Origin: Pocillopora damicornis
Lineage: Eukaryota
DNA: 64,000 nucleotides
Direction: 5' to 3'
NCBI RefSeq assembly: GCF_003704095.1
Contig: NW_020844929.1
Location: 1 to 64,000, forward strand
The translations under genes were made by a program, and so were the position numbers. Below are positions 37,508-61,977 of this stretch, piece after piece. Positions within the stretch are counted from its first letter, which is position 1; the number at the start of each line of letters is the position of its first letter. Under the pieces are notes generated by a model that made no database searches, had not been told where the DNA came from, and was given only the letters and a program-made list of their open reading frames with translations.

Positions 37508-38158
37508 TCAATTCGTACCACTGTTACATCTTTTAAGCCATTTTTCAATTCTATGAATATTCCTCTGGTCCTTGTTGAGTTCTTCAGTCGAACACGTTCG
37601 CGATGAAGCGAGGGCATAATTCAAATTCATCTGAGTCAGATGCCACTGCCTGTCCCCTTCGCGGTCACAATATTGTATATTTTCATCTGATGCACTTCGT
37701 GGGACAATTCCAGATCCATTTTCCGAAAAATCCGCAGAACAGTTCAATAAATCCCTACTTACTGATATACCGACTGCAGTTGATAGATCACAGCAACCGT
37801 CCAATTCGGAATAAAGATCTGCGCTTGTATCAGCCAGAACCATGTGAATATAATCCATTGTTTTGTACCGGCGAGCCATATTAGTGATTCGATATCTCGA
37901 CCAGGCTTTTAAAAACTCTGGGCAATCATCGTACCAGATTTCTTTTTCGAGGTCGCATGGAAGACTCCGCCATCTTGGTATCCATACAGTATGATCACTT
38001 CTTTGGCTCGTTGTTAGAAACGAAATGCAAGAAAATCTATCAGTTGCCAATGAAGTCCTTGATTGTAGCTTCTTTTCGCGAAATTTCGTCGGATAGCTCG
38101 ACATATCTGGAGTGATAATTACCGGAGGAGACAAAGGCAACTCGTTTTCTGTCTCCAT
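37508..38158 (-). CDS. Orphan single-exon protein, 216 aa, ending in an IxxWL helix
   Basis: 651-nt ORF in AT-rich DNA with a good start context (acaATGg); Ser/Arg/Asp-rich; C-terminus NIHRIEKWLKRC. No recognisable domain. Confidence 0.7.
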   Translation of the reverse strand: METENELPLSPPVIITPDMSSYPTKFREKKLQSRTSLATDRFSCISFLTTSQRSDHTVWIPRWRSLPCDLEKEIWYDDCPEFLKAWSRYRITNMARRYKTMDYIHMVLADTSADLYSELDGCCDLSTAVGISVSRDLLNCSADFSENGSGIVPRSASDENIQYCDREGDRQWHLTQMNLNYALASSRTCSTEELNKDQRNIHRIEKWLKRCNSGTN

Positions 38159-40921
38159 TGTCGTTCATTTCTCGAAAATATTTCGGCACTTCAATTGTAA
38201 ATATTAACTTAACAGGTTTAGTGAAGAGAGCATCTGATTAAGGCTGAGCGAATGGCATTGACACGGGTGAATATTACAATATTAAGATGGCTTGCGCTTC
38301 ACATCGCTGGCGGTGTGTAATATATTCAGAAACAACAGTATTTTTGTAGTGTTACGTATGTGCGCATACTGGCCAAACTCGTAAATTGTATTCCAGCTAT
38401 AAACTGTCATGCTCTGTCCTCCGATTGGCTAGATTTAAAAAAATGGAATCAAAGCCGAAACGAATCCATTGAGCAGAACAACTTAAATGTGTTTTCCGAT
38501 CTCTTTTGCAGGGTGATTATCAACGGAAATACAGATTTCTGTCCGCGATTCCCTATTTGTCCACGCATTTGCTATATGGTTAAATGTCCGATGCTTTTAC
38601 CGTAATTTTGCCCATTTTGTAAACAATACGTCAAAAGATTGAACCTTTGACGCATTTTGTATTTAAATCAATAGGTGTACGGGAAGTCATAGATAGACTT
38701 TCGGTTGAATTTCCATACGTTTCTGACAGCGATTATCAATTATTAACAACATTTCAATTTCAATATGTCTACAATCAAAATGAAACGGAAGCGATTACTA
38801 AAATTAACATTTTCCTTCAAAAAAAAGAAGGAAAAAAAATGTTGATAAGGATTACTCAGCCTCTTCTATGATTGTGTTGGGCCAACAGCTGAAAACAAAA
38901 AATTTGCTATGCGATATATTTGATGTTAATTGGCATTCACGTGCATTCACTTTACCAATATTAGCCGCTTTCATCTGTCTTCCAATTTCTTTTTCATTCA
39001 TTTTTAAATTTCAGAAACGCAAACGATAATCAAAACTCAGGATAACCTAACATTTTTATGAGATAAAAAAAAAAAAAAGAAATTATCCTAAGAGAGATGT
39101 TATAGGTTTTTTATATCGTTATGAGTTAGTTGGAGTCGCTCAGACGAGAGACAATTTAATGCGGATTTCACTTGAAGGGAAAGATACTGGTCTCGCTTAA
39201 AACTGTATTGGCCTGTGATATCATGCTACTGTTAGTTGCTATATCGCTGACTCATGTCGTAATGCCACGCTGATCGGCGGCGTGCGTGTTCCGAACAGTG
39301 CAACGGAAAATCGGCCCGTTTTAAAGAGAACGGATAAAAACAGCCATAGCAGAATATTCCTACCAAAAAATGAAACTCACTTTTATTCGCCCATTTCTTT
39401 CGCCGGGGCTCATGAAATAAATGAATATACAAAATCTCAATGTAATCGAGTCATCCGTCTTCTGTCTGGTATATTTCTTCACAAAACTTCTTTGGCAATT
39501 TTGTTTTGTTTCCTTTTTTTTTAATCTAAAAGCAACCCTATGAAGTGAAGCAATCATGTTCCTTCCTGCGGTTAAACAAAACAAAATACATTTAAGAGCT
39601 AAATAGAAAACAATCAGTTTATTTATTTTTTTACTGAAAAACTGTTTACAGTGTTATTAATATCAACTTGAAAATATTTCAGTAGTGGCAAAAGCTGGAA
39701 GATAAGAAGTGCGTGCCCGGTTAAATGCCGGCTCGCATTACTGCTCTTCCACCGCAGAACTAATTTCAAAAAGTGATTAAAACTGTTTGGTTCTTTCGTA
39801 TGATGATTCAATGGATTTTCAAGGGGCATTACTCTTCTGACTGAAGCGATGGACGATGTAGTCATGAAGTCTTTTTACTTCTATCAGCCTGTTCACCTCT
39901 CCTTTCCAACTTTCCAAGTCTCCTTTCAGCTTTCCACGTCTCCTATGAAAAGAAGAAAAAAAAAAAAACGACATGACAATAAATTCAAATTCTAATTTTT
40001 AATAGAGTATTACCTTGCGTTGAAACAATCTAAATATTTTACTGGAATAGCTGTTGTTATCAATAATGTTACCGTTTCTGCTTCTTTTGGAACTCCTTCC
40101 TACTGACTGAAGTGACAGATCGTGTTTTTACCTCGTCGATCAATGGCAGGGTCTGCCAGTGTACGTAAAAGTGATAGAGCCAGAATTTGTCTTGACTTTA
40201 TTGACCTATTATCGTTTACGTTGGTACCTGTCTCAAGACGCTTTAACAGACTAAGCAGTTTTAGAACATATCAATGTCGCGTCATTTACACTTACAAAAC
40301 AAAAAAGTGTCTATCAGGAACCATGATTCTGTTCAAAATTTTACACTCAGGGTTAAATCACCCATCAAATGTTCTTGAAGTCAGTTAAAAACTGTCAACG
40401 ACATCAAAGGAAGTGGGAACGCTGAACTTAAGGCAATTTTTGTTTTAAGTTGTCTACTCTGTTTGAATTTGGCCCAAATGTTATCATTTTACGTTTGACT
40501 TTTTTATTGTAATGGCGCCATTCTACATAATTCACGCTAATTTTGAAGTATTATTGATTGTTAACTTGCCATAGCGCTGTTGTAATTAAACTCGCAGAAA
40601 CAACGCTTTTGAAACACCTTGTCGCAGTACTTTATCATTATTACTTTTCACTTACATGTTCGGCTAGCTCAAATGATGGTTTATTTTATTTCCTAAAAAA
40701 ATGAAAACTTTATAATGAAGAAAGTCCAAGAGAGTTTTTGCATCCACAGATATCTTTCGCCATCCAAGAAATCGACTCATTCTAACCAGTGGAATAAAAC
40801 TTCACAAACCCCTTTCCCACTAGCTACTAAAGGCAAATGTCCCTTTTCTGAAAAAAAATTGTAGCAGGTGAGCTGCAATTTTAGCCAGTACAGGAAAGAA
40901 GCCTGAATAAGAAATATTTAA

Positions 40922-40993
40922 GGCTTCGACGGGTTTCAAACCTGTGCCTCCCAGACACTAGTTAAGCGCTACTACCGACCGAGCTACGAAGCC
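40922..40993 (-). mobile_element. tRNA-derived SINE head
   Basis: Minus strand ggcttcg-tagctcggtcggt (A box)...ggtttgaaacc (B-box-like)-cgtcgaagcc, with a 7-bp acceptor-like stem but a degenerate anticodon/T arm. Confidence 0.65.
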
Positions 40994-42114
40994 GCAGGTT
41001 GGGAGCGAGGCAAATTTTAGCGAGGATCCTTGTGTTTTCTATTGTCCTTCATAACTGAAAGCGAAGAAAAGAGTAACGCGAAGGAAGTCTCTTTGCGTTC
41101 AAACTGTCCTTTCACCTGTTAGGAACTCATACAATGATGTCATATGCCATTGCTTTTTTTTTTAAATTTTAATCTTAATTTTTGTGAGAATAACTAAGCC
41201 ATGGTAATCATTTATAGATGAGTAGACTTACCGAAAAAAAAAAACCTTGATTCCTAAAATAACTAGTTGAATTTTACTAAACTGCGAATTATCTAGCCAA
41301 TAAAAAATGAAAACGAAAAAAGAAAAGAAAATTAACAAACATTTCGAGCCATGACCTCGTCGAAGGGTGTAGATTCAACACTACTTACTTAACTGAAAAT
41401 AATCACCGACGCTTAGGATCCAAGAGGAACTCTACACCGGGAGGATATTGTCACCAGAGAACCGGCGCTGATTGTAATATCATCAAATTAAGAAAACTGC
41501 ACGAAATATTTTTTAAAATATTCTTGCGGCTATCTCTTCCATAATGGAACTTCTCCTCATACAGTAGATATTTAAAAAGTCTTTTATTCGGCATGTTGAA
41601 TTCTATCCTCGGTATTTTTAGCCCTCGAGTTTTCGTGTGCTCTATATTGACACAGTTGATTTGTAAATATACGATGTGTATATGTTTTGTTTACAGCAAT
41701 GTTTAACAAGGATTGACACGATCATTTTTCTAATCTTTTTTCGACTTTTTGTCCTTTGGAAAATCTCCCTTTTACTGTTCCGCACCACATACGTACAGCT
41801 ATTATTGTTAATCATTACGATCATTTTGAAAGTTTAGAGTTGAAAAAAGACATTTTGTCATTAATTATTTAGCAAAACGCATTAGCCTGCGGAACATGCT
41901 GCCTAAACAACCATCAAAAAATTGAAGATTGTTTTTCATTAGAAAGACATACCTGTCACATTACTTAATTAGAGCAGACCATCAGGCGGTTATAACAATT
42001 AATAGCCATAGTTATAAATTATGTCGTGTTTTATGTTATATTTCATTCATTGAGGCACGCTCTCAGGGTTCATCCGATCTTGTCAGTCCGTTCGTCCGTT
42101 CATTTTTCGCAGTA

Positions 42115-43091
42115 ATGTACAGACTATCACTCGTTTTGGTTTGCGTTTACATCGCTGTTTCAGTAATGCTGTTGACTTGCCCTCGAGATACTGAAGCTTC
42201 TGCTCTAACACCCTACGGAAAGAGATCACAGGTAAAAGTAATAAATTTACCTTAGTAAAAATGAAAAGAAATTAAGGAGTCAAGTTTCTTAGCCATACCT
42301 ATAGTAGGAATTAAGATCCGCATGTTTGACTGTGAAAATCTTCAGTTGAAAGTTATCACGGGCTGAGGTCTTTAAAAACTGAACTTGGTATTGTTTTGAT
42401 AACTTTTTGGTGTTTAATTTCTGTATTATGATGGGGAAAAAATCTTTTGCAACGAGAATACATTGGAAACTTAGGACATTATCATTATAAAAAGATTCGT
42501 AAAACGTGCCAAAGTGCAGGATGGAGAACATCTCGGTGTCTGTCCAGATCAAAAAGAAAAAATAAATGAAGGAGATAAATGCTTAGCGATTTAAACAACC
42601 TTCGAAATTATAAATTACAAGAAATTGTTAAAAGAAACCTTATTAGGAACTTGCCTTTAAAATGTGTTTAAATGTTGGAAGTCTTTTTGAATGATTAGGA
42701 GGTTTATTTCTCTGAAACGGATTTTTAGTCACCTGCTTTGACTTATGTGCAATGCTGTTGTTGGAGTAAAATGCATAAAAAAAAAAAGAATGAAAAAAAT
42801 GGCGAAATAGTTCAAGTATTAATTAGCATTTAGATTTTCTCGTCATCTCAGCCGATCTAAAAGTTTCAGTAATTTAGGCTGATTTAAAACAATTTAGGGG
42901 CGGCATTTGACTTTTAATTATTTCTTTGACTTTATGACTCCACTAGTGCAATTAGTTGTGTTTAATAGCATGTTTATGTCTGTGTTCAGGTGTTTCGTTA
43001 CAAGAGAAGCATCTGTCAGGCAGCCAGAGCGCTGAGGTGCGACAGTGAAGAAAATCCGATGAGACGAGACCTAGGAGCAGATGACATTTGA
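42115..43091 (+). CDS. Neuropeptide precursor, 72 aa, predicted SALTPYamide; 2 coding exons
   Basis: Exons 42115-42231 and 42990-43091 (phase 0, GT-AG): MYRLSLVLVCVYIAVSVMLLTCPRDTEA-SALTPY-GKR-SQVFRY-KR-SICQAARALRCDSEENPMRRDLGADDI*. Signal peptide, amidation/cleavage site GKR, second KR, Cys pair, and aataaa at 43186. Confidence 0.8.
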
Positions 43092-45362: not shown

Positions 45363-46320
45363 ATGGGCAAGCTGTGTACGTCGTCGAAGAAAGGAACCCA
45401 ACGTAAACACCAATTTTCAGGTAACTTCAAACTTGTAGATAAAACGACCTCGTTAGTCGTCATAACCCCGCTGAATCTAAATTTTTCTACTTAAAGTGAA
45501 GAGAACACCAGCTGGATCAAATGGATTTTCTGACAAATGGATTTGCGAGAACCAAGAAATTTCCGAAATACATTATGCTTTAAAGGGAAAAGAAACCAAC
45601 ATGAAAGAAAATCGTTGCTCTGAAGGTCATTTTCCTCAAGTGGTAGAAGGTCTGGAATCGCAGACCAGTCAAGCGGTAAGCACAAAACAAATGGAACATT
45701 CTGATCAAAGACAGGTGCAGAATCAAAGTACGATTAAGGAATTTCAGCTTAAACAAAAGCAACTAATTCCAAGGATAAAGCTGCCATTTCCACCATCTAC
45801 TCCTAAGAACAAGGACCACGATGCTATGCCTACATTTCGACAACGAAAGTTCAGAGTTGATTGCCCTGGCTCCCCGCTCAGTGAGGCGCGTGAAATAAGA
45901 GTTAAAAACCGTTTCCCTGTGACCATCTCCGTTGATACTTTCCCTGTTACCGGTAATCCGGCTCCGTATAGTTGGTCGACAGACTCTAATGACGAAGAAT
46001 GCAACAAAAATGACGTAGAAGGGGTAAAGGAAGTAAGAAACAATGTTGAGGGTCTCTTGGGTCTCAATTCTCCAATGTCACGCCTTTGGGATTCTGTCAC
46101 GACATCTGTCACGTCGATTAGTAACCCTCATATTTATAAGAGCCGTGGTCCCCATCCCATCGACTCTTTTGCGCAAAGACCTCTGGAATGGAACGCAAAA
46201 CTTTGTCGTCAAAAACTAGAGCTAGCGGACAGCTTTGATTCTCAGCGCGGTAAAGATTCCGCCCTGGCGAGACAGATGATCAAAAACTGGCTTACTGACG
46301 TTAATATTAGATCTAAATAA
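45363..46320 (+). CDS. Orphan disordered protein, 293 aa, with N-myristoylation-type start and C-terminal IxxWL helix; 2 exons
   Basis: Exon 45363-45420 (MGKLCTSSKKGTQRKHQFS + G), a 76-nt GT-AG intron (45421-45496), and exon 45497-46320 in frame with the 274-codon ORF; ends ARQMIKNWLTDVNIRSK*. Confidence 0.75.
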
Positions 46321-49300
46321 GTCCAGGGCACGAAGATTTCAGTTATTTTTGGTTTTGGTTTCGTTATTTTAAACTACCAACTAAAAGCTGAATTGTAACA
46401 TAGCTATTAGATCCGTTCTTCAAATTCAGAGGCGTGAGCGTTCTTCACATTCCCTTGTGTAGGCTGATGACAAGTACGGTTGTATCAGAAGTTTAATTAT
46501 ATCAGAGGAACTTTTTCACCGACCGTGCTTTCTGCCTAGGCAGTGCTTCTTTGAAGTCACCCTTCGTTTGGGTCTATAGAAAAAAAGTTGTTGTTACTCG
46601 ACGTATTTTTGCAGAATCGACACTAAATTACTCCTAAATAAGCCATTTTTAGCGGAAAACTCTATTTTGGAAAATACAAAATTGTTTGGAAAGCGTTGTA
46701 AATGTTTACTCTACCGCATTGAAAATGATCTTAATAATCGCATAATGTGTCGGCTGTGCGTTCATCGAGACATGAAGCACATGAAAAGTTCAAGCTGAGA
46801 ACCTCTGTTTCCGCGAGCTTATGCCTCGACGAACGCTTACGAATGAGCCAGTCGTTTGCATCTTATACACAAAAATACACGGTATTATGTATCTTTTTTT
46901 AAAACGGGGGACAAAGGGTTGGCTGGCACTATGGACCCTTTTGGATGATTGATATGAGGCAGAATAATCCGGTTCAGCGCTAGACACACTTGGCGGAGCA
47001 GAACCTCTTCTTCACTAAATACAGAAGGCAAAATAGGAGCTGAAATCTTATTTTGCACATTTATTTATTATCATTATTTTCAAGTACAATCCTGCAGCAA
47101 GATTGGGTACTCTGACTGTAATGGTATTCTTTTCTTTTTCTTTGCAACTAAGACGGATTAAGTATCCTCTCTTGGCAACATATTTTCGCTTAATCTCACA
47201 GATGCTTTTGTCCTTGTATTTTTCTTAGCTCATACGCACGCAATCTGCAGTCCCCTGATCTGCTTAATTAGCTTAGGGTTTGATGTTAAATAATCATTTA
47301 TCATCTCCTACTTTTGATGTCAACGTTATTTCTTTTAGCCTGAAAGAAATTGTGGCGCGGTTATTTTGCATTTCTTTTCAACTTATATTATTTTGCTGCG
47401 ATATGCAATTTTCACAAAAAAAATTTTATTTGTTGAGCATTGACATATCAGTGTTAATGGTTGTCGCTGTAGTAGATAAGGTAAGGGCAGCCTGTCGTTG
47501 CAGATCTGTTGTTACAGCCCGTGGTAAACTGTACCTCTCACTTAGGCAGTTTATTGTTATTTCAGCTTCACCTCTAGATCTGAGCCGTGTTACCCACCTC
47601 GAAGCCACTTAACCGTGGATTCACACACTTCAGTAGCTTGGAATGTTGCTGCACAGCCCCCAATCAAACACAAGCGTGTTTACTAAGGAAAAAAAAATTA
47701 TATGTTAGTCAGCTACGTAGTATCTACATGACGAATAATACCTTTTGTCATCTTAGTCTAACGTTATTGTTCTTTCTGAAAAATCTGTCATCATGCTATG
47801 TTTGAAACGAAATAAAGAAGCTCACAATACCTCGGATAATCTGAGCACAGGAACTGTATTTGTCCAGCTATCAAAGCAGAGAATAAGTCTCTGGAAAAAG
47901 TGATTTGTATTACTTTCTAAAATCCTCCTTTCAAATACTCAAACGTTTCCGGTAGCATTGTATTTCAATATACAGATTTAATTTTAAAAAAGTACATGCG
48001 GATCTTCATGACCACGCAGTTTTTATCCATTCTATGTTCCAGTGCTGATTCAAGCTTAAATTTGTTACACAAGACACTGGAAACAAATACATTCGTTGAA
48101 TTCAATCACCTAACACACCTTAAAGAAATGTAACCGTAGTACATTCTGCACTATACTGCTTGGCCGTTTTCTGCTCTTGTTGAGCAACACAACCGAAGCA
48201 AAGGCATCAGCGGAGACTGCACTTGTAGTGCAATACTTTCTTCTTCCAAATGAGATCATTCTACTTACGTGGTCTAGAACTGAACACATTCAAAATTAAT
48301 ATACGTTGTTAACTTTTTCTTCCAATACATGGATAGGCCGAGAACTTGAGGTGACGTCAAGATCAGGTAGATCGTGTAGGGGCTGGTAACTATACAACGC
48401 CTTATCGACTTTCATAGTCAATGAAGCATTCTGTCTTTCGTAAATAAGTGATGGACCCTCACAGGCTGTTTAAATGGCCTTTTTGTGAAATTGCTGTTCT
48501 GTTACCGCTTTTTCGTTCACAAACCACGTTTCTCTCAAATCTGTCCTCCGAGAATGTTTCTGTGATTGAAAGGGAGGGTAAACAGATTTGCTGCATCACA
48601 GGACTAACCAAAGTTGTGACATTCTCTTAATGAAGGATTAAATCGCCTCCGTTCATTCTATCTCTTCCCTCAAGCTGTTGATAGCACGGTGTTCAAACTC
48701 AAAAAGTATCCTTTTATAAAAAGATGGTTCAAAGTCATTTTGAAGTTAAGCGTGCCATGCTTCACGATCGAACCAGCGCTCACGACATCTAATAAATCAA
48801 GATCAAGAAAGATGACAAATTTTGACCTCAATTGTCCAATCAAGAATAATTTTTAAGAAGGAAGATGGATGAGGATTATTGTTTCAATTTACGTTTTTAC
48901 TCATACAAATCTTTCCATTAAGCCATGGAGATTACTTGCTTTCTCGCTTTGTTTTTTCGAGTTCTTAAGATTGGACTGCCTACAGCTCTGACTCGATGTC
49001 TAACTCTAAACTTGCTTTTCAGCGTTCCAGTGCAATGCAGCAATGTTATACAGAGATCAATATACTAGCAGATTACACATTTTGTTTATAAGGGTTGTTA
49101 GTCGAGTAACGAACTCCCTCCCTGCCATGCTTTTGACAGACCGCCAGTGCACAAAGTGTTCATGCATTCAATATGGGATGGAAAGTGAGCATGTATTAAT
49201 AGCGCTAAACAACGCTCATTGACTTTTAAGAATTTTATTCTTTCAAGTTTTGCCTCAAACATTTTCATATTATTATGAAATGAAATATATAAATCACACA

Positions 49301-50448
49301 TCGTTTTTTGAAACAAATTCCCAAACCGATAACCCACTTGACTCTTCATATGTCATAACAAGGATTTTGAGTATCATCTTCACAAAATACAAAGTAAATA
49401 CCACCCAGATACTCAGACCAAATAAATTAAATTTCAAGGAAGCTAAGCCCTTACACAAATACAAGCCGCTTTCCTGAGCGCGAATAAAACTTTCAAGGAG
49501 GCCTAACTCAGAGTCTAATTATGGTACAATCAGGCACTGTATAAATTAGAATGACACCATAGACAATGAAAAACACATGGTGTTTTGATAAAGAACTTTT
49601 GAGGGATTTTAGAATTTGGCAGTTAATTGTATCAATTTAGCTCTTCATTAGTTCGCTATATACACTCTCATTTCGCAGCTATGGACAATTATTTATAGGA
49701 CCCCGCGCCAGCCGGGGAAGACGTCTTGATTTCTCAGATCCGCTCCGGATTTGGAGGAATGCAGAGGACATTACGGGTCAGTAAAGAATCACGCGTGAAG
49801 CGGATGATTTCTGAAAGACCGTGAATAAATAACTATGGGCTGCAATTGTATTCGTTTTTCTTTGTTGCCTTACATAGGCGATGATTAAAGTGATACTGTG
49901 TAATCCTGAAGAATGCTCAGTCATCATATCGATTGATCGATCGTTATGGCATAGAAACTTCATGATACTGAAACGATAAGAAATAAATCGACAGCGGGGA
50001 ATAAAGATTATTTTCCTTCTTAAAAATAGTTCAAAGAAAGCTAACAACCGGCAATGCTTGTTCCTGTATCGCTGAAACGCCCATGTGTACTTCTTTTTTT
50101 TTCTTGTTTGTTAATCAACCAAAAAATTCAGATAATTTCTTAGGTTGTCGATTTAAACGAACAATCCAAATAGTGTTGTAGCCAGTTTTAAAGTTCAACT
50201 AAACCAAACAATTCGCAGCTTATAAGGTTGGCGTTCCTCCAGCAGACTTTTTATCATCAGTATGTATCAAAAGAACAAAGTACCGGTTAAAAGCTTTTCG
50301 TCCCAGGAACATCAGCTGGTTTGATAAATGATCAATAAAGTCAAACAGAGAGCTGATAACTTACGTGCAACATGCATGCAAAGTCTGCAAAGACTACCAA
50401 AGCGAATATTTACAGAGACATTTCCTGGAGTCTGTTTGAATCCAGCTG

Positions 50449-51312
50449 CTAAGTGATTTTAGCTTTTTCGCAGTCTTTCAGCCAATGGCAAATCATTGAG
50501 AATTTTTCGAATGTCTCCTCATCATCGTTCTGATCGATCACTCCGTCTTCGTCGCACAATTCTTCATCTAAATATTCATCGATCTTTACATTTTGAATGT
50601 GGTCGACGCATTCGTCTATTTTGTTTTCCTGGCTTGTGAACGCGGACTTTGTGTGCTTGTGGAAGGCGGAATCGTTTATACAGTCTGTTCCCGTTGTAAG
50701 AGCAAAGCCAGTTTTGATTAAAGGCAAAGAATTCGTTTTGCGAAGATGTTCTTTCTCAACGCCAATTGGTGTTGACATCCTTCTCCTACCTCCAGGTCCA
50801 AGAAGCAATGTGTTGTTATCAGGTGCAACTGGGCGGGAAAAGGCTCCATCGTAATTATTATTCATTACACCATTAGTTCCCTTCAGATCTTTAATATTCT
50901 TCTTGATAGCGTCTTCTCCTTGAGACGCATTTCGCAATGGAGGAAGACATGAGGCTGACAATACCTTAGGCAGCGTTTCCCTCGATTTATGTTCTCCTAG
51001 CACTTCAAGAAAATGTTCCGAAGGTCGTCTTACAAGGAACCCTTGATCCCCATTTGTATTGTTCGTCGGTGGTGTAAATGGAGGAGTCATGGATCTCACT
51101 TCAGACAAACTAGAGTCATGTTTGGAACTACAGGCACTCCTCGAAGATACAGAAAACATCCTTTCTCTTTTGGCAATATCATTAGCGGTTTCCTTATCGA
51201 GGTATGGTTGTTCATAGGCATGGTTGTCGCAGTTTAAAATCGTTGGAGGAGATATTTTGCCTCTTAATGGTAGGAGGCTTTTGTCTGACTTCTTCATCGA
51301 TATTTCCTTCAT
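50449..51312 (-). CDS. Orphan disordered Ser/Pro-rich protein (~287 aa from first ATG), acidic tail and C-terminal IxxWL helix
   Basis: Long ORF open from 51375, first ATG at 51312; a possible acceptor at 51366-51367 means an upstream exon may exist. Motifs RRPS, RRMS, RKTNS; ends DEETFEKFSMICHWLKDCEKAKIT*. Confidence 0.75.
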   Translation of the reverse strand: MKEISMKKSDKSLLPLRGKISPPTILNCDNHAYEQPYLDKETANDIAKRERMFSVSSRSACSSKHDSSLSEVRSMTPPFTPPTNNTNGDQGFLVRRPSEHFLEVLGEHKSRETLPKVLSASCLPPLRNASQGEDAIKKNIKDLKGTNGVMNNNYDGAFSRPVAPDNNTLLLGPGGRRRMSTPIGVEKEHLRKTNSLPLIKTGFALTTGTDCINDSAFHKHTKSAFTSQENKIDECVDHIQNVKIDEYLDEELCDEDGVIDQNDDEETFEKFSMICHWLKDCEKAKIT

Positions 51313-52966
51313 TGTGAGCAGAGCTGGAAATGTTTCCGTAATCCTTTCCTGGCTAAGCGCATCACCTATAGTCAAACGAAGTGAAATACAGTTTGTTATG
51401 TAATTCTTTAAACCTAAACATAGTCAACGGCCGGCAATGAGAACATTCAGGAATGTAACTCATATCGATTACTGCTCTGTAAAATAGCTTCCACTCAGTA
51501 AATAAATGACATTGTCATTTAAGTAGTATAATTCTAAGTTCCGGTTCACAGAAAGTAGGTTCACCCTAAGTTTTAATCCTAAGATAACTCCAAGATGACT
51601 CGATTCTGTGCCCTTAAGTTTATGTTTTTCTCTATTATAACAATGCTAAACTGAAAATTTTCGTGTTATGAATTTGAGTCATTATATTAAAGAAAAAATG
51701 TTTCCGTGCTCTCGTGCTCATTGCTGACAGCTCATCAAGTTAAGTGGTTCAAATAATTTCTGCATAGCAAACAAATTCCTCTATTGGCCTTTTGTTCTTT
51801 GTGGTCTGCCTGATTCTACCCGACCGGCCGGCGAGTTTACTTATACGTTCATTTACACAATTCAATTAAGGAAAGAACACAAAATACCTCTTAATAAACA
51901 GCCTTGTAATTAATGAACATGTTATGAGTCCTTTTTATGAAGTTTTGTTAGCAGAGAGAAGTGAATCCTTTTATTCGTTATAACAATGATGTGCTTGATT
52001 TACCTGCCTAGAACGTGTGTCTTATACTGATCAATAACTTCACACATGACGACCTTTGGTGGTAAAACTAAGAGGAATTGAATGATATTTTAAGATAGAA
52101 AATGAACTACTGGAAAACGGCCTACATCCCTGCCTCTGGCACTGCTTAAGATAATAGCCGGGTGAAGTAAAATTTATTCTAGATGAATCGAACAATTAGT
52201 TAAGTGCCTATTTTCTAGAACGTTTCTCTTACCTTAGTAAATACAGGGAGAGAATTGAACAATTGATGATAAATTAAACGTTAACAGCAAGGGTAACGCA
52301 GAGATCTGGGTTTCTTGTCCCATGAACCGTTTTAGTTGGCTTGATGGCGTGATTTCATTTCGCTGATAAGTTTTGTAAGTAAATATCATTAACACTCAGG
52401 AAGCAACAGAGAGATGCTGAAAGTTTGTCAATCAAAGTTGAACTGCTATGGTAATTAATCTTGAGCTATCAAGTGTCTCGCCTTATGGATCGACTCAGTG
52501 GCTCACGTGCACCTGGAGTGTTTCACGCGTATGCCAATGAACTACGCATGGCTTAACTCTAAAGATAGCTTTAGGTGTTTTGTATTATTTAGCATTATCT
52601 ATTTTCTTGCTACGTCAGGCCTCAAATTTGCTTTCGCTTCAATTTTAATTTTTGTAGACAGTCTTCAAGTGAGCACAATTACACAACTGGGAGCGTTTTT
52701 TATTTCAAACCTGACCTTGTTTCCTATTGTCTTGTTATTACAAGAGTTCCAAAGTCCATTCATTCCCTGGTAATTGCAGGCAGGGTTACAGAACAAAACA
52801 TATCATCCCAATTATTCAGTCCCAAAAGGAGCCGGGATTTTTAAAATAAAGTTTTACACCTATCGTCGTCACTTTCTGCTTTACGCGCATGATAACTGAA
52901 ATGTATAAATATTTCTTTTCCTTACGTATGCTTTCCTCTCGCTAGCCAATGGTTGGTAAGAGCACA

Positions 52967-53065
52967 AACGAGCTAGTTAATTCGCAGGTCAATTAACTAG
53001 CTCGTTAAAACACTAGACATCTCTGATGTCTAGTGTTTTAAAAAGGAAACCTTAAAAATGGTTTC
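52967..53065. repeat. Abutting perfect inverted repeats (16-bp and 17-bp stems) plus a small third hairpin
   Basis: aacgagctagttaatt-N8-aattaactagctcgtt (52967-53006); ttaaaacactagacatc-tct-gatgtctagtgttttaa (53005-53041); gaaacc-N8-ggtttc (53046-53065). Confidence 0.85.
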
Positions 53066-55842
53066 TGTGCTTGATTCAATAGCTGAGTAAATGAATGAAA
53101 TGAACTTCTTCTTTCACTTGGTGAAATACATGGAATATTTTCCTCAAAACACGTTTCGCATCAAAATAGTATGCTTCGATTAAACAAAGGCACGTGGTCT
53201 GAAACACTGACGCCCCTATGCGAAATTGCTAGTGGGACCAAAACAAGCAATAATTTAACAAAGATTGATTGAACCATTTTACCAGTTGCATCTTCTCTGT
53301 TTTTTTTTTTCACGGGGCAAAAGTTTAATTCATCCTAAGGAGCCAAGTCTCAAGAGATGAGAGCACCCCGCGGTGCCTCAGCACAAGTTCCAAATTTACA
53401 GACAGTTACTCGAGTGTTGATAATGAATATATGTCATCAGTTGTGCTACTTTATCTAAAAAGAGGTACCGACGAAAACATAATATTTTTTTTAATATTAA
53501 GAACGCTTTCTATTTTCCTTCCTCATTCAGCTATCACGTAAAGGAAATAAGTTCATGAATACCGATTTCCAGCTGCAAATGCATTGTACGAAGTCTTTTA
53601 GACTGAACTTAAACCTAAGCTACTTGTAGTGTTAGGTTTTCTTTAAAAATTTCCAGAATATTTTGAGTGAATGGGCTTCTATGTACATAAAAATCCTTGT
53701 GATATTTTTTTCCGTTGTTTTTATTTTTAGACGAGAAGTTCCTGAGAAGCGACCCTCGCTTTCTTATAAAGTCTTTCAATGACTTCTCGTTCAAAACAGC
53801 TTTCGAACCACTTTTTCATAAGTTGTTCAAGCATGAATGCAAAATTTCCTGACTTTAGGATTATGCTTTCATCGCAGTTTAGTTCTCTTAAAATAACCTG
53901 AAAATTAGTAGTGGTTGGAAGCATGGAGAAAGGATTGCGAATTGAACGGCGTAAGATTTTGAGCTCGTTCTTTGACGGTACTTAATGTACTCCTCCGGTT
54001 AGGACAAACACTTACTGTGGTGGCTAATACACCTGTTTCTAAGTGCCTGATAAAGGACGTAGCTGCTCAAAACGCCGGAAATTTTTGTCAAAACTATTTC
54101 GATTACTCTCTTTCCTTTCGCCTGGGATTATCATTTCTTTTAAACTCTTTCCTTTCGCCTGGGATTGTTAGTCACGATATCGAGAGAACCGTTTTGCTCG
54201 ATTTTTCAAGATCCTTAAACCAATATCATCTGCTGTTTTGATAGAAGACTCTTTCCGCATTCCGCCATAAACGACAGTAACAAGTATGTGAGCATCAAAC
54301 GATGCAATAAAGTTAGTTATAGCACAAAAACGTCCGTAAATGTTACACTTGATGGCGGAATGCTAAGTCTGAGCCACGATTTCACATAAGAATCGTAGAT
54401 TAAAGGCGACCACCGTGCGATGAGCGGGCTCAAAGTCTACTATCTTGCTGTCACTAGCAACGCTTCCGACGTTGCTGATTCAAGCAGTATACAGAGATCC
54501 TTGTTACACGTAGACCAAATTTCTCTCTTAACTCACAAACAAGTTCTTTGTTATTCGCTTAACGTTGCTTAGTCGCAAAATCGGAAGGTTTGAAATTTAA
54601 ATAATTACGGGAGACTAAGATTTTTTTGTTGCCCTCCTCCGACGATCATTCATGCGTGTTTATAAACCATTGCTGTGTTACGCTGGTGTTTTGAACGCCA
54701 AGTATCTTACATGCTACGCAATATAGGCACCAATCCCAAACTTACCGAAGGTTCTGGCAGATGATGAATCTTTAAAGGCTGCCGAAAACGCGGCGTAAAA
54801 ATCTTGTGAGTTGTCTGCTCGATATATTCAATTTGTTGATATGATGTATGTTCCGTTCCCTCTGGCGAAACGTAATCCAGCGCCGGATATCAATTGCTTC
54901 CTGGTGCACGTGATCAGGTCATGCACCAATCATGTACTCCGCGATCAAATATGCAAATGTATGAGAACACAGGACATCGCTGTCAAAGATATTAGGATTC
55001 TTAGCCTTATTTCATCTTGCTAAATGCATGGGAGGAAATTTATTAATAGGTTAAAATGGGTTAATAATGACATGCTGGCGAAAGGAACGTATAAAAGAAA
55101 AACTGTTTCGTAAGCAAGAGTTGATCGCAAAAGTGGACGTGATGCTATCATATAAATAAATCTTTCGTTTCGCTCTCCTAACCTGAGGTCATAAAAAAAA
55201 ATTCCTCCAGTTGGATTTAAGTTCAGTCTCCTGGGGCAGCCACAAAATTGGTTTAGAAAAATTATAAAAAAAGGAAAGCCGAAACCTCAAATCGAACGAA
55301 ATAAAGATTTTTTTATGCTTTTGAATACAGCCATGAAAGTGTCGTGAATGAGATGCCGACAATGTTCTTTTTGGCTGTTGTTCAAAACGCTGCTTTGGGA
55401 AAAGTCGTGGGTGGCGCTTGAAGGTGCACCTCTGTCATTTTGAAGGAGCCACAAAAGACCTCTTTCCTTATGTCTCTCCCCGCGAACATTGAGCTCTCAG
55501 AGTCATTTTAATCTAGTTCTCTACATTCATGTTTACTTTTACTCGTGAAAAGTATATCTGAATCCACATAATGTGAATATGTTTTTCATTCGCCTATACT
55601 AAGACACTGAATAAATAAATAAATAATCGAAAAAATAAATTATCAAGGAATGCCATCAAAATAAAATGCAAGTTACAAGGCATTTGCCCGACTATCAAGC
55701 CTATAAAGACTATAAAAGCCTTGGAATTTCCTCTCGAGTTTTCATACGTAATCTCTTTATATATATATTTCGTTTGTTCCGGTAGACTAAGAAAAGTTGG
55801 GAAAATGAAACAGCAAACAAACCATCCTAGATGCTCGAAAGC

Positions 55843-55960
55843 AACAATAATGATAATGATGATAATAATAATGATGATGATAATGTGCTAATAATGATAA
55901 TAAAAATATTAATAATGATGATACTCATGATCATAACAATAATGATAAGAACAACAACGG
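55843..55960 (+). repeat. Imperfect (AAT/GAT)n microsatellite
   Basis: Directly visible. Confidence 0.85.
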
Positions 55961-58900
55961 AATAAAGATTAACGGTTACTTATAGTAATAGACTGACAAA
56001 CAAACCGAGGAATGATTTTTTTCTTTTATATATTCATTTGTCGGAATTTTTCTTCCTGATTTGACCTGGCATTGTATGCATCGTATGCGTTAATCATCCA
56101 TCTCCTCTCTGATACTAAAAATAAAACAAAAAAAAACGAGGGTAAAATTCATTTTAAAGGTCATAGGCTGGCAGAAGTTTGCATCGTTATATCCGGCCAT
56201 TTTGTTGCTCCTTTTTCGTTACTTGTTTTTCACCTATTACAGTCTCTACTGTCTCATATTTTGCGTTTCCTCTTGTTCTGATCAATAAATAAAACATATG
56301 TCATGATCATTGTACATCACTTTAAGCCACTGGAAAGACGTGATCGTGTCTTTTTGTAGACAAGTAGACAAGCATTGACGCGACGATGTAATTGAAAACT
56401 ATCAAACCAATTAAAATTAAGTAGAACAATGAAAATTAGTGGATCACCTTGGATTCAAAAGATGTTTGATATGACCGACTGTATGTAACTACCTTCACGT
56501 ACACGATTCATAATTTCTCAAAACTAGAGTTCTTTCTTTAAAACGAGTGAATTCATAAAGCAAACTTGATGGCTTTACAGAGCTTTCATTTTTTCCTCAT
56601 AGGAGGATGTAGATACGTCGCAATTTTTAACACAAAGCTACTTACTCAAAGGTGTTCCTGAATGAAAGGTATTTGACTGTGTTGGTTTGCTTGCACACGT
56701 CATTCACCAACGCCTGTTGCTAGGATACCCCGTTATTATATCTTGGCAATCGATAAAGTTTAATATCTCAAACATTTTAGCCTTGAACTTGCCTTTCAAA
56801 AAAAACAAACCAAAACAAAAAAAATTGTCTTGTCAAGGTCGTTTATATATTGTCTTTCATTTCAGATTGTTCCGCAGTTTTTATGATATAAATGCTTCAC
56901 TTTTGTAATCGTCTTTGATGCCATTAGAAATAATAGTACTGCGGTTTTAGGAGAGTTTTAATTGCAAATCACCCGCAAATAACTCGAGGGCGACTACGAT
57001 TTGTATCCAAAGACACCCCTCCAAGTATCCTTAAAGCTTGTGGTAGATAATAATGTTTGTAAGCGCTCTAAAGATAGTTTTCCATTGTGAAAGGCAAAAG
57101 CAGTTTAGCAGTCTTACATACTAAATGCCAAGTAGGAAGTAAGCCGGTTAAAATTTTAACACATGAAATTCGAAGATAAGTAGACACGAGGACGGCGTTA
57201 GAGATTGAGAAAGAGTGAATGATTTATGAGACTGTGTTTTTTTTATCTGTTTTGTTTTGTTTTATTTTTTTCGATAGTAAATAGAGAGCGACTTTATGAA
57301 CACAACTTAGAAAAAGTTGGAAAATCTTACCAATAAAAGGAGCTAACTGCTGCCAAAAGAGCGCCAAAGACAGCTCAAGTACGTCAAATGCTAGCTAGCT
57401 GTGGCCATTAAAAAAGATGTGTCGATTTTATCGGTTCTTTCGAAAATCATGTAATCTGGAGAAATCATGTGCGGAACTTTGAGTGCTTCGAATGATTCAT
57501 TGAGGAATCCCAGATCATTTTAACAACAGCGCACTCTCTAGACATGAACAGACAACTGCTTGTAGAGCAGACAACCTGGGCCGTAAATGTTGAATGTTAA
57601 CGTTGCTTCGTTTGTGGACATGTCACTAAAGTAACTTAAGATATAAATAGATTAAGACGCGTTGTTTTCTTTTTATCGAATTTGGAGAATATTTTTGATA
57701 GACTGTAACTGCTGGAGAAGCAGGTGTCTACTAATGGAAAGAGAGAAAAGATAAAATGTTCTGCTGGCGGATCAAGAAAGCATGTTATTCATCGAAGAAA
57801 TTGTTGTCAGCTAATATTTACATTGAAAGTATGATAGAGTATCAATAAACTATAGCTTCAATAGCGTGAATGAGATGATAGGTGGAGCCATGTGTATGGT
57901 ATTCATGCTTTTCAAAGCGATATGCATGCAACCGGCCTTCATCTACAATAACGAAGACCTCTTAGTTTGTTTTCCACATACCCTACAGCATGTTTCTGTT
58001 CTTTACTTGCATTAATTAGCATACATATGTTTTCCCTAGATAGTATTCATTTGTTTGTTTTTTTTTCTCGCACATGCAGTATTCATGATTTGCCTTTTCA
58101 GTCATAGATGAACGATGAACGAAAGTTCAGTTGGTTTTAGCCGATTTTGTTTCCTTGATAATCTTACTTACTTTTTGTTTGGTTCAAAAACTGGGGATTT
58201 GAGCACACGGATAGCTCTCCTCTGTTTTCCAGTTCATACGATTCAAACCAAGATGCCGAAAATGCCGGCCTTGGAAGCTTCAAGCGTACATAGTGTCGGA
58301 AAATAGCTCATGGATATATTAAGTTTTGCTTTATGTGGAAAATAGAGTGTATACGGAACTGCTCATGACAAGGGATAAATGTAACATTTAGTATTATTCT
58401 GACTCGGAAAGAATCATTAGGTTGTACCTCCCTTTCCGGAGAAAGGAAATAACGCAAGTCAGTGAACAATCTCGTACACGCAAATGATCATAATTCTTTT
58501 CTTTAAGTGAATATTTTAGAAAAGATCGTCATTCAGTGAGAAGATGACAATAAAAACAAAGGAAGCACTTTAGATGCATTTTACTATTATCATTAAAACT
58601 ATCATTATTATTATCACTGATACTATTTCAAGAGGTAGATACTTCTAAATCGATCAATTTGGCCACTTCTAGCAAAGCAGCCGAAGCTATAGTCCATCTA
58701 ACGCTTGTTGGCAATGTCATTGAACGATCGTGACCATAAAAAAGAGGTCTCTTTGTTGCGTAGGACGACAGTTAAATGAAACAATTGCGAAATGCTCACA
58801 TGCTGACTCGACAAGGTAATTTTAAAATAACAATGAACTGAATCTTTCTTTTAATAAGATCAAACATGATTCCACTTCTGCTACCGGGAAAAACGCTTAA

Positions 58901-61218
58901 TTCTGTTTACTTTTTCCATAAGATCTCGACCACTCTGATAAACTATTTCCTCGTAAAAATAATAACAATGATATAACTTAATACACTCAAAATTAAGGAA
59001 ACTTGTGGTAAACGCTGTCATGGTATCTTGATTTTTGAAGGACAGAAATTTGATTTGTATGCATATATTTCGAAATGGCTCATGATCATGAAGCGAGCAT
59101 ATTAGACAGAGAGAGAAAGAGATACGGTTTTTAAAGAAAAGGGGAAAATATGCCGGTGCTAAAAAGCATGATTAAAATGTTGCTTTTGTATATATCTTAT
59201 AATTAAACAGTGGAGTAGAAAATGAAGTATTAATTTAACGCTCAGCAGGTGCCTCGACCATCGCAAAGTGTTATGAATTTGACCTGAGTAAATTAAAAAC
59301 TCCTTTTGAAGTACTTCATAAATAATTTTATCGTATTTATATCCACAAACACTCTAACCTTACTCTGATAAAAAAAAATTCATTTAAAATTCTTCGACCA
59401 TTTTAAAATATCGCCATTTGAGCAACCACAAGTGGGTAGGGGATTCACGATTATGTTACTGACTGACGTCAACTACGCGTTCAAAATGATGAGTCAGGAC
59501 AACTGCCGTTCTAAAGAATAACCTCAAAATGTTCATGTTAGTTCCGACTTTTGGGTCCAATTTCCTAATTTCTTAATCATTTACACATAAAGATAAATAA
59601 ATAGCGTCGTGCACCGGCTACTGATTCGATCTGCACAAAACTAAAAAAAGCAGAAGATTGATTCAGTGCCTTGGATCGGAAGGAAATTGATTTTATTCCT
59701 TCTTGTTTCGTTTCTTATATTGTTTGATTGGATTTAAGGAACGGATAATGACTAGAAATCGCGAAAACCTTTTAGCCAATAAAAATGAAAATAATGTGAA
59801 TTAAAAAATACTGATAATTGTTTGAAATTCCTTCAAACGTTTAAGAGATACCAAACATGGACGAAAGAAAGAAAAAAAAAACTCAAAAGCGATATGGTCT
59901 TAATTTAAAGCTAGATAAGATAAGACACTAAGTTAAACAAGGGGTCCAATTAAAAATTTTCTTATCACACTTAACTTTATGGAATGCGGGCAACCCTTTG
60001 TGGTGAACGAAACCAGACATTTGTTTGTTTAACAAATAATTGTTTTGGAGAGAAATTCACAGATATACAATTTGCTCTGCCGGTATTGTTATGAGATGAC
60101 CTTTGCCTTGCTAGAACGTAAACTGGAGCACGTACTCAACCGAAAAACGTGCAAAGTTGCAGGTAATCTACTACTATCTACGAATTATCGAGACCTAAAG
60201 GTCGGTAGATAACACGTAACTGTTGAAAGAAAAACAAGCCCGTCATTTAAAGACTTTGTCTAGCGCTGATTTATTTCAACTCCAAAATATGCAAAATGAT
60301 AGATGACACAAATGTCCGACATTCTGTCACTCCAGATAACGAATTCCTTTAAAATACCCGTAGATACTCGTTACGATTGATATATTCTTTTGATGAGTAT
60401 TGATGAAATGAAAGAGACACACTATAAGAATTTTAATTTAAACCCCCCCGAGTTAAAAATAATTTTCCATCTTTCATGAACGTGACTGCAAGGTCACGAA
60501 ATGGATCACTCGTTTTCCAAATTAGACAGTGGTTCAATAAATATTAATTAAAAGCGAACTTTAGACAGCGTCGAGATCCATTTGAACTTTAAAGTGTTGT
60601 TTCCTTTTCTGTTTTTTTTTGTTTGTTTGTTTGATCCATCTGAACGGTATCTTTCTAAAATTGTCTTATTCCGAGAACCAACCGGTTTCCATCTAAACCG
60701 AAGCTAACCCTAAAAAAACTTTGATTTGACTCGAATATATGGACAAACGCGAACCGACAAAATAGGAAAACCCAATAGGTTTTAAGTTAACAACAAAACA
60801 AAATATTTTCATAGTTCTGAACATTTATTAGAATATCCATCCCAATATTTAAGAATAGCTTTCTCACTTCAATTTCAAATCATACAAATACTTTCACACT
60901 TTAATATTTTACATCATGTCAAATCATTTTCAATAAGAGAATTGAGTTATTTAATTTATAACTATAAACCACCCTTTTTTAATAGATCAAGTATTATCTT
61001 ATTGATAGCAAAATATTAAATACCTTAACGCGTGTAAAGCCTTCCTTGCAGTCTTTCTTTTTCTTTAGTTTATAATTCTTTAACTTTCAGTCGCGATCTT
61101 GTCTTCTAACCCCGGAATTATTTGTTGTCACTTGAAATAAATGACAACCAGGCTAATTTCGTGTCCTTAATAATTTATACTTTACTGATCATACACATAT
61201 ATACATATGTGTATATAC

Positions 61219-61977
61219 CTAACTCTGACTGTTTAAAAAGCGCTCCAAAATTACAGCTTTAGTCGTGAATAAATCATAGTCCAACTCCTCTTTTTCGATA
61301 TGTCTTCTGAGGTCAGCTGAATGTTTTTCTTCGGTTCCTTTGCGTGGAGTCTCTCCGTTGTTGAGTTGAGGCAAACTGTTAGAGCATGTATCGTTTTGTA
61401 TTTTTGTGACGAGAGAAAATTTTCCATCGTTAAAAATGACTGGATGTGAAATTGTTCTAGTAAGTTCGTAGTGTTGTGGGCGATGTACTCTCTCTACCCA
61501 TTCAGATGAAGGCGCCGGCAGTAGTTGGACATTCTCTTTCAAGTCTCTTTTAATAAGATTTGGTAGCCAAGAGTTTTCGTGGGAGCTTCTTTTCTCTAAG
61601 GCCGATTTGAACAACTTCCCTCGTCTTGGATGTGAAGGCAATCCCACCAGTGCTATTATTTCGGTTTTTCCCTGTTCAGTGTCTGAAAAGGCATGAGGTG
61701 TTGTAATTCTTGACGGCACGTTACAATCCGAAGATCCCTCACGCAATGAAGGTAGATGCGATGAAGATGACGATCGTCTCGGTAGCATAATATTAGGATT
61801 TGGTAGTTCTTCGAGTTGGGAAGACTGATGAATTGGAGTGGCCTTCCTTACAGTCCTCATTGCTCCTTTAAAACTACAACGTCTAAGCTTCCACGGAACT
61901 TGTGCCGGTATCAAATTCGCGGATGTGTTTGCTGTGAAATCAGTTGCGATGTGATGGAACTTCACATGGATGTCAGT
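61219..61977 (-). CDS. Orphan disordered Ser/Pro/Arg-rich protein (~250 aa), C-terminal LxxFL helix; start uncertain
   Basis: Long ORF with RRCS, RRSSSSS, KRSS and RTIS motifs, ending EELDYDLFTTKAVILERFLNSQS*. The listed start is GTG; a possible in-frame acceptor precedes 61977, and a possible micro-exon MYVC lies at 62541-62530 (speculative). Confidence 0.7.
   Translation of the reverse strand, partial: TDIHVKFHHIATDFTANTSANLIPAQVPWKLRRCSFKGAMRTVRKATPIHQSSQLEELPNPNIMLPRRSSSSSHLPSLREGSSDCNVPSRITTPHAFSDTEQGKTEIIALVGLPSHPRRGKLFKSALEKRSSHENSWLPNLIKRDLKENVQLLPAPSSEWVERVHRPQHYELTRTISHPVIFNDGKFSLVTKIQNDTCSNSLPQLNNGETPRKGTEEKHSADLRRHIEKEELDYDLFTTKAVILERFLNSQS

What the first reader, a model, noticed from the sequence alone, without database searches (positions are those of the whole stretch)
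37508..61977. Cluster of four orphan disordered proteins sharing only a C-terminal I/L-x-x-W/F-L amphipathic helix
Seen: four 216-293 aa ORFs (37508-38158 -, 45363-46320 +, 50449-51312 -, 61219-61977 -) lie in otherwise gene-poor DNA, each encoded almost wholly by one exon, rich in S/P/R and without recognisable domains. Their ends align: QRNIHRIEKWLKRC, ALARQMIKNWLTDV, EKFSMICHWLKDC and TTKAVILERFLNSQ, each preceded by acidic residues and followed by a stop 4-9 residues after WL/FL. Three carry several basophilic kinase/14-3-3-type sites (RWRS, RSAS, RRPS, RRMS, RKTNS, RRSS, RTIS). Inference: an old, tandemly expanded family of phospho-regulated adaptors or inhibitors that dock on a common partner through the terminal helix; I do not recognise a described family. 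The fourth member fits the motif least well.
Basis: partly seen in the sequence, partly recalled or inferred. Interest (0 to 1): 0.75.

Follow-up and report, generated by a model that had tools for sequence, protein, structure and literature searches.

The report
Ancient coral tail-helix gene array
Four real, expressed coral genes for floppy proteins sit directly beside eight more genes that end in a similar short helix; one of the four clearly belongs to that unnamed family, two likely do and one is doubtful, and the helix likely serves as a handle for a shared partner protein that is still unknown.

Summary
The four ORFs are real, lie on RNA contigs and match no Pfam or PDB entry. This scan noted that array before on neighbouring DNA (e1-8592257); I re-tested it. 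ORF4, called the worst fit, is a clear member (hhalign 92.5%, E 5e-7). ORF1 and ORF3 share a shorter I-x-x-W-[LF]-x-x-C helix, kept in 18 of 18 and 30 of 30 aligned sequences. It matches the array's core above chance (leave-one-family-out 3 and 0 of 8355), but homology is not shown by HMM. ORF2 is weakest (86 of 8355; no relative beyond near-identical sequences). New here: ORF1 reaches Nematostella and the octocoral Xenia, so this tail type is likely pan-anthozoan; and ORF1, 3 and 4 keep a hydrophobic-x-R/K-x-x-S-x-P site of 14-3-3/AMPK-family type (22 of 22, 30 of 30, 21 of 21). Best reading: kinase-gated disordered ligands docking on one unidentified partner. FAM110, INKA and SOCS-box membership tests failed. 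Binding and function are untested.

The parts
37508..38158 (-). ORF1, 216 aa, single coding exon; oldest member (hexacorals and octocorals)
37523..37573 (-). ORF1 terminal helix, residues 196-212; I204, W207, C211 invariant
   Evidence: AF2 helix H196-212, pLDDT about 68-78; 18 of 18 in A6
37958..37981 (-). ORF1 site IPRWRSLP (60-67), 14-3-3/AMPK-family type
   Evidence: W[RK]SLP 18 of 18; full pattern 22 of 22 in A3, 15 of 18 in A6
37856..37870 (-). ORF1 second basophilic site R-x-K-[TS]-M (97-101)
   Evidence: 18 of 18
45363..45420 (+). ORF2 exon 1; starts MGKLCTSS, an N-myristoylation-like sequence (pattern recalled, not tested)
   Evidence: joint in RNA contig X1; translation; regex
45497..46320 (+). 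ORF2 exon 2; doubtful member, no relative beyond its own 90% cluster
46201..46299 (+). ORF2 tail (255-287); aligns to the array helix only with a 5-residue insertion
   Evidence: hhalign P 0.046; 86 of 8355; missed by the combined HMM
50449..51312 (-). ORF3, 287 aa, single coding exon; relatives across stony corals including Acropora (38%)
50461..50505 (-). ORF3 terminal motif (270-284); I274, W277, L278, C281, E282 invariant; most conserved 15-mer of the protein
   Evidence: 30 of 30
50722..50745 (-). ORF3 site LRKTNSLP (190-197), 14-3-3/AMPK-family type
   Evidence: 30 of 30
51019..51030 (-). ORF3 RRPS (95-98), PKA-type site
   Evidence: 29 of 30
51365..58364 (-). ORF3 upstream exons, apparently non-coding, with alternative joints (52231, 56114, 57331, 58172)
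   Evidence: CT..AC joints and a loose end that matches the ORF3 exon start
61219..61860 (-). ORF4, 213 aa, single coding exon; clear member of the downstream tail-helix family
61228..61335 (-). ORF4 terminal helix-break-helix (176-211); KAVILERFL invariant
   Evidence: (21 of 21)
61441..61464 (-). ORF4 site LTRTISHP (133-140), 14-3-3/AMPK-family type
   Evidence: 21 of 21
61738..61755 (-). ORF4 LPSLRE (36-41), PP2A-B56-type LxxIxE motif after an RRxS site
   Evidence: LPxLxE 20 of 21; the miss lacks the N-terminus

Best explanation
The four genes are the near end of a 78-kb array of up to 12 coral genes for disordered proteins, and their conserved terminal helix likely folds onto one shared, unidentified partner while kinase sites in the body likely switch that binding through 14-3-3. 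Shown: the genes, RNA cover, the array, ORF4's membership, invariance of the tails and of the basophilic sites. Inferred: ORF1 and ORF3 are old, diverged cousins with a Cys instead of Gln at +4 and without the upstream half of the 30-residue helix; the conserved face K(-7), I/L(-3), W/F(0), hydrophobic(+1), C/Q(+4) is the binding surface; AMPK/SIK/MARK-, PKA- or CaMK-type phosphorylation at hydrophobic-x-R/K-x-x-S-x-P recruits 14-3-3 and takes the protein off, or away from, its partner; the unrelated bodies give each copy its own input (a membrane anchor in ORF2, a B56 phosphatase site in ORF4).
For: ORF4 vs the 8 downstream tails: hhalign 92.5%, E 4.9e-7; HMM 17-23 bits vs best background 3.9. 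A profile trained only on the 8 downstream tails scores the 13-column cores of ORF1, 2, 3 at shuffle P 0.025, 0.008, 0.001, while four non-member neighbours give 0.22-0.87. Tail-only hhalign: array vs ORF1 and vs ORF3 beat 60 of 60 column shuffles and 39 of 39 non-tail windows; ORF1 vs ORF3 50%, E 1.6e-4. Leave-one-family-out near a stop: ORF1 3 of 8355, ORF3 0, ORF4 0; accepted member d83 3. K(-7) in 8 of 8 downstream, 21 of 21 ORF4, 29 of 30 ORF3. The tail is the most conserved 15-mer in ORF3 and ORF4 and the only confident helix in AF2. The 14-3-3-type site is in 3 of 4 ORFs, kept in 22 of 22, 30 of 30, 21 of 21, and in 0 of 46 background ORFs.
Against: A gapped HMM of the downstream tails scores ORF1, 2 and 3 at background; ORF1 and ORF3 tail HMMs do not retrieve each other at E 20 among 17,463 segments. 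ORF4 vs ORF1 or ORF3 tails is not significant (46 and 17 of 60 shuffles reach it); array vs ORF1/ORF3 probabilities are only 4-5%. Beyond the three core positions the extra similarity is weak (P 0.02-0.23). The bodies show no homology. K(-7) holds in only 6 of 18 ORF1 sequences. In ORF1 the tail is only the sixth most conserved block. One search is partly circular: ORF1-3 help train each other's models and I chose the columns after seeing the tails. The 14-3-3-type pattern was also chosen after seeing the alignments, is absent from ORF2 and from 7 of 8 downstream members, and occurs in one non-member neighbour. The B56-type motif of ORF3 is kept in only 17 of 30.
Confidence: 0.5

Rival explanations
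1. Two separate things: ORF4 belongs to the downstream 30-residue family, while ORF1 and ORF3 form their own small WLxxC pair with a different partner and ORF2 is an unrelated fast-evolving neighbour.
For: ORF1-ORF3 is the strongest link outside the array (50%; P 0.0034); ORF4 does not match ORF1 or ORF3 directly; +4 is C in 48 of 48 ORF1/ORF3 sequences and Q in 29 of 29 ORF4/downstream sequences; ORF2 is missed by the combined HMM.
Against: The same register K(-7), aliphatic(-3), W, hydrophobic(+1) appears in ORF3 and the array; both tails beat all nulls against the array; adjacency to an array with a like tail is unlikely at a background of about 0.7% per ORF.
Confidence: 0.3
2. The tail is a self-association helix: the proteins pair with each other in homo- and heterodimers, as SARAH or leucine-zipper proteins do.
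For: Invariant residues fall at -7, -3, 0, +4, a heptad-like spacing on one face; ORF4 has about 35 helical residues at its end.
Against: Two of the four face residues are polar (K, Q/C); AF2 breaks the ORF4 helix at 195-196; ORF1 has only a 17-residue terminal helix; the hydrophobic moment is low in several tails.
Confidence: 0.1
3. They are strongly diverged members of a named bilaterian family of single-exon disordered adaptors, such as FAM110 or INKA.
For: FAM110A has a predicted C-terminal helix at 268-289 and is kinase-regulated (PMC11260166, passages); I recall that this helix holds an I-x-x-W-L motif (not seen in any call). The ESM Atlas ranks FAM212/INKA first for ORF1 at 0.84.
Against: No FAM110_N, FAM110_C or FAM212 hit for any of 73 alignment members or for the tails; no FxxxF motif in any of the four; the ORF1 profile finds 7 proteins in 1.84 billion, those with names all anthozoan; the Atlas hit is under 0.9 with 3 of 10 agreeing, which the tool calls probably wrong.
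Confidence: 0.07
4. The shared ending is chance among unrelated orphan genes.
For: The core is three residues; 1 of 24 background ORFs of 200 aa or more ends in IxxWL.
Against: ORF4's match to the array is highly significant; all tested tails are invariant in relatives; 0 of 30 genomic pattern matches end a long ORF.
Confidence: 0.03

Closest known systems
Coral tail-helix array noted by this scan (e1-8592257), contig 75-116 kb
   Same: Same contig, intronless disordered ORFs, terminal K-x3-L-x2-W-hydrophobic-x2-Q helix; ORF4 is a member
   Different: ORF1 and ORF3 have C at +4 and lack the upstream half of the helix; ORF1 reaches anemones and an octocoral; ORF2 fits only with an insertion
FAM110A-D (PMC11260166, passages read)
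   Same: About 300-aa kinase-regulated adaptor with conserved helices in a variable chain and a predicted helix at the C-terminus (268-289); terminal I-x-x-W-L recalled, not seen
   Different: No FAM110_N or FAM110_C match, no FxxxF CK1-docking motif
14-3-3-gated disordered regulators phosphorylated by AMPK/SIK/MARK kinases (CRTC, class IIa HDAC N-termini, Cdc25C, KSR1; recalled)
   Same: Hydrophobic(-5), R/K(-3), S, P(+2) site kept in a disordered chain
   Different: No sequence homology; no catalytic or named binding domain; binding not tested
INKA1/2 (FAM212), PAK4 inhibitors
   Same: Top language-model neighbours of ORF1 (0.84, 0.83)
   Different: No Pfam, PDB-sequence or own-genome match; below the tool's lead threshold
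'Dark' gene families of stony corals (PMC13044578, abstract and passages)
   Same: Conserved, unannotated, lineage-restricted, expanded by duplication
   Different: The passages I read describe the class in general and do not name this family or motif; supplements not read

Membership tests
Downstream 30-residue tail-helix family (e1-8592257) | Full 30-residue helix detected by profile | tested here: met
   ORF4 only: hhalign 92.5%, HMM E 1.7e-4 among 17,463 segments
Downstream 30-residue tail-helix family (e1-8592257) | Full 30-residue helix in ORF1, ORF2, ORF3 | tested here: not met
   HMM scores at background
Downstream 30-residue tail-helix family (e1-8592257) | Core K(-7), L/I(-3), W, hydrophobic(+1) near the stop in ORF1 and ORF3 | tested here: met
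   K(-7) in 29 of 30 ORF3 but 6 of 18 ORF1; +4 is C, not Q
Downstream 30-residue tail-helix family (e1-8592257) | Core in ORF2 | tested here: inconclusive
   shuffle P 0.008, 86 of 8355, 5-residue insertion needed, no relatives to test conservation
Downstream 30-residue tail-helix family (e1-8592257) | Single coding exon, disordered body, same cluster | tested here: met
   ORF2 has one short extra coding exon; ORF2 and ORF3 disorder from composition only
FAM110 | FAM110_N and FAM110_C Pfam domains | tested here: not met
   own-genome search for PF14160 found no candidate but had no positive control
FAM110 | FxxxF CK1-docking motif | tested here: not met
   absent from all four; 2 of 18, 6 of 30, 0 of 21 relatives
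FAM110 | Terminal helix homologous to FAM110's | not testable with these tools
   no FAM110 sequence came from a call; the paper's supplement could not be read
INKA/FAM212 | iBox (PF15342) | tested here: not met
SOCS-box proteins | SOCS box at the C-terminus (considered for ORF2) | tested here: not met
   no Pfam hit on the 50-aa tail at E 10
14-3-3 clients of AMPK/SIK/MARK-type kinases | Conserved hydrophobic-x-R/K-x-x-S-x-P site | tested here: met
   ORF1, 3, 4; absent from ORF2; consensus recalled
14-3-3 clients of AMPK/SIK/MARK-type kinases | Phosphorylation and 14-3-3 binding | not testable with these tools
   needs phosphoproteomics and pull-down
PP2A-B56 LxxIxE ligands | Conserved LxxIxE motif in disorder | tested here: inconclusive
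   ORF4 20 of 21; ORF3 17 of 30; none in ORF1

The most novel reading that the evidence does not exclude
All 12 genes descend from one ancestor older than the hexacoral-octocoral split and form an undescribed anthozoan signalling module: a bank of disordered, 14-3-3-gated ligands, each wired to a different kinase, phosphatase or membrane input, competing through one terminal Trp helix for the same groove on a single hub protein.
Probability: 0.3. Interest if true: 0.72.

Novelty: new variant of a known kind. Interest (0 to 1): 0.48.

Why it matters
Many conserved coral genes have no assignable function. Here a short conserved handle ties otherwise unalignable 'dark' genes into one testable group, and ORF1 has an orthologue in Nematostella (LOC5504086), where tagging and knockout are routine. 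One peptide pull-down could name the partner for up to 12 genes. It also shows how a family can hide from sequence search when only about 13 residues are shared. The design itself (disordered chain, kinase sites, docking helix) is familiar, and no function is shown.

Tried and rejected
Pfam on full proteins, 73 alignment members and tails: noise only. PDB sequence searches with five queries: best E 0.31. ESM Atlas: nothing for the ORF3 tail, leads under 0.9 for ORF1. Own-genome searches with ORF1, ORF3 and ORF4 found no paralogue (word-based, so remote copies are missed). Own-genome searches for PF14160 and PF15342 rang nowhere, controls included, so they show no absence. Two DNA-pattern scans: no new member among 60 loci inspected of 311 and 129 matches. 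A model of two ORF4 tails (172-213) gave no answer (score 0.02, alignment not used); this is no evidence either way. E-box and D-box counts: cluster rates are close to background (0.21 vs 0.14 and 0.12 vs 0.13 per kb) and ORF1-4 show no paired sites, so the light-switch idea of e1-9201043 does not extend to them (counted from the ATG, and ORF3's promoters lie further upstream). Considered from memory and dropped on pattern mismatch, without a call: BH3, MIM1, PIP box, AKAP helix, eh1, CPI-17, dynein LIC helix. An IQ-like stretch (15 of 18) and a PxIxIT-like stretch (14 of 18 by a loose pattern) in ORF1 are not kept in most octocoral rows and remain leads. Fold searches were not run because both models are low-confidence. 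No dN/dS: no orthologous DNA was at hand. Paper searches for the motif, the gene identifiers and an anthozoan cluster found nothing relevant; main texts only, supplements not searched.
Full report
1. The observation. Four long ORFs lie between 37.5 and 62 kb. ORF1 (216 aa) and ORF3 (287 aa) are as stated. ORF2 is 293 aa when 45363-45420 is joined to 45497; one RNA contig shows this joint and three runs show an acceptor 5 bases further on that shifts the frame. ORF4 starts at the ATG at 61860 (213 aa), not 61977. RNA contigs of four runs cover ORF1-3 and four runs cover ORF4; these are contigs, so strand and level are not shown. All four exact sequences are in the public protein collection; named cluster members are uncharacterised Pocillopora and Stylophora proteins. 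No Pfam or PDB match rises above noise.

2. Conservation. ORF3 has 36 hits among 436 candidates, down to Acropora at 38%; I aligned 29 of them with the query. I-x-x-W-L-x-x-C is present in 30 of 30 rows and the tail is the most conserved 15-mer. One search with a mixed alignment gave 49 hits that sort to ORF1, ORF4 and ORF2. ORF1 is 48% identical over its length to a Nematostella protein. Its profile, run on 1.84 billion representatives, returns 7 proteins; three distant ones carry the same tail, and one of their clusters is named from the octocoral Xenia. Across 18 rows spanning both groups, W63-S65-L66-P67, R97-K99-M101 and I204, W207, C211 are invariant. ORF4's KAVILERFL is in 21 of 21 rows (56-74% identity overall). 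ORF2 finds only its own cluster among 181 candidates and varies most within it (median 95.8% vs 98-99%), so it is young or fast.

3. The cluster is larger. I fetched the contig to 244 kb and found eight intronless ORFs of 175-319 aa at 75.3, 83.2, 88.6, 94.8, 104.3, 107.5, 111.2 and 114.9 kb whose ends align with K(-7), L(-3), W and Q(+4) invariant. ORF4 matches this helix over 40 columns (92.5%, E 4.9e-7), and an HMM of the eight scores 9 of 9 ORF4 sequences at 17-23 bits against a best background of 3.9.

4. Are ORF1-3 members? For: a profile built only from the eight gives shuffle P values of 0.025, 0.008 and 0.001 on the 13-column core, against 0.22-0.87 for four other neighbours. Tail-only hhalign of the array against ORF1 and ORF3 lands on the same Trp and beats 60 of 60 column shuffles and 39 of 39 non-tail windows; ORF1 against ORF3 gives 50%, E 1.6e-4. 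In a leave-one-family-out test near stops, 3, 0 and 86 of 8355 background segments reach the scores of ORF1, ORF3 and ORF2; an accepted member, d83, has 3. The background rate of a relaxed tail is about 0.7% per ORF, and 0 of 30 inspected genomic IxxW[LF]xxC matches end a long ORF. Against: the gapped HMM does not see ORF1-3; ORF1 and ORF3 tail HMMs do not find each other, and a combined HMM misses ORF2 at E 50; ORF4 does not match ORF1 or ORF3 directly; similarity beyond the three core positions is weak (P 0.02-0.23); the bodies are unalignable; one search is partly circular. My estimate: ORF4 about 0.97, ORF3 0.7, ORF1 0.6, ORF2 0.4.

5. Anatomy. AlphaFold2 models of ORF1 and ORF4 are low-confidence coils; the only segments near or above pLDDT 70 are the terminal helices. 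The invariant positions -7, -3, 0/+1, +4 fall on one helical face (geometry is inference). ORF1, 3 and 4 each keep a hydrophobic-x-R/K-x-x-S-x-P site (22 of 22, 30 of 30, 21 of 21; 15 of 18 with octocorals; 0 of 46 background ORFs; shuffle chance 3-6% per protein). From established knowledge this is the AMPK/SIK/MARK-type consensus with the +2 Pro of 14-3-3 sites. I picked the pattern after seeing the data, and only 1 of the 8 downstream members has it. ORF3 keeps RRPS (29 of 30). ORF4 keeps LPxLxE (20 of 21), a B56-type motif; ORF3's version holds in only 17 of 30. ORF2's long form starts with a myristoylation-like sequence.

6. Mechanism. Shown: genes, cover by RNA, array, conservation. Inferred: a fold-on-binding terminal helix that engages one partner, and phosphorylation with 14-3-3 as the switch, each copy bringing its own inputs (0.5). 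Rivals: two separate tail types with different partners (0.3), self-association (0.1), a hidden named family (0.07), chance (0.03). The partner is unidentified.

7. Comparison with the known. It works like kinase-gated disordered adaptors such as FAM110 (PMC11260166, passages read: predicted helix 268-289, FxxxF docking of CK1), but fails the FAM110, INKA and SOCS-box tests. It falls in the class of coral dark gene families (PMC13044578, abstract and passages). Searches of main texts for the motif, six gene identifiers and an anthozoan cluster returned nothing relevant; supplements were not searched and may list these genes.

8. Verdict. A real, unnamed, partly ancient gene array with a conserved terminal handle. 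The scan had noted the downstream part; this window adds a secure member, two probable cousins, a doubtful one, the anemone and octocoral depth, and a shared kinase site. Interest 0.48.

Noticed in passing
window 42115-43091 (+), intron 42232-42989: Spliced 72-aa ORF with a signal-peptide-like start, a short peptide ending in GKR, a second KR and a two-Cys stretch: looks like a single-copy amidated neuropeptide precursor. Joint seen in 3 of 4 runs. 'TPY' is not in the main text of PMC7523074 or PMC11087051 (passages searched).
   Followed up: partly
window 62652/62679 to 63732 and contig 67776: Spliced RNA, by its GT..AG joint on the + strand, starts just upstream of ORF4 and runs away from it; no long ORF across the joint. 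Possible divergent or antisense non-coding RNA.
   Followed up: partly
window 45420-45502: Two acceptors 5 bases apart would give ORF2 with or without its myristoylation-like N-terminus.
   Followed up: partly
window 47111-50449 (-): ORF3 RNA contigs extend up to 3.3 kb past the stop, towards the 3' end of ORF2, with further CT..AC joints: long 3' UTR, convergent pair.
   Followed up: no
window 29595-32842 (+): Fz and NTR domain exons: an SFRP-type gene directly before the cluster; useful synteny anchor.
   Followed up: no
window 2861-3856, 7578-12092, 18054-18419, 19742-20332: Galactosyltransferase; ion-channel-like gene; ARM/HEAT exon; SCNM1 last exon.
   Followed up: no
L003:2552-3172 (-) and L005:5111-6055 (-): Two more intronless basic disordered orphans (203 and 311 aa) inside the array that lack the tail; the second has the 14-3-3-type site and an RVxF-like motif.
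   Followed up: partly
L003:6152-7003 (-) and L009:671-1849 (-): An exon that by recall resembles the end of an RBM24/38-type RRM (no Pfam hit), and an LRR/F-box-like gene closing the array.
   Followed up: no
P0158: A 59-aa Logan sequence that looks like a degraded copy of the middle of ORF1; origin unexplained.
   Followed up: no
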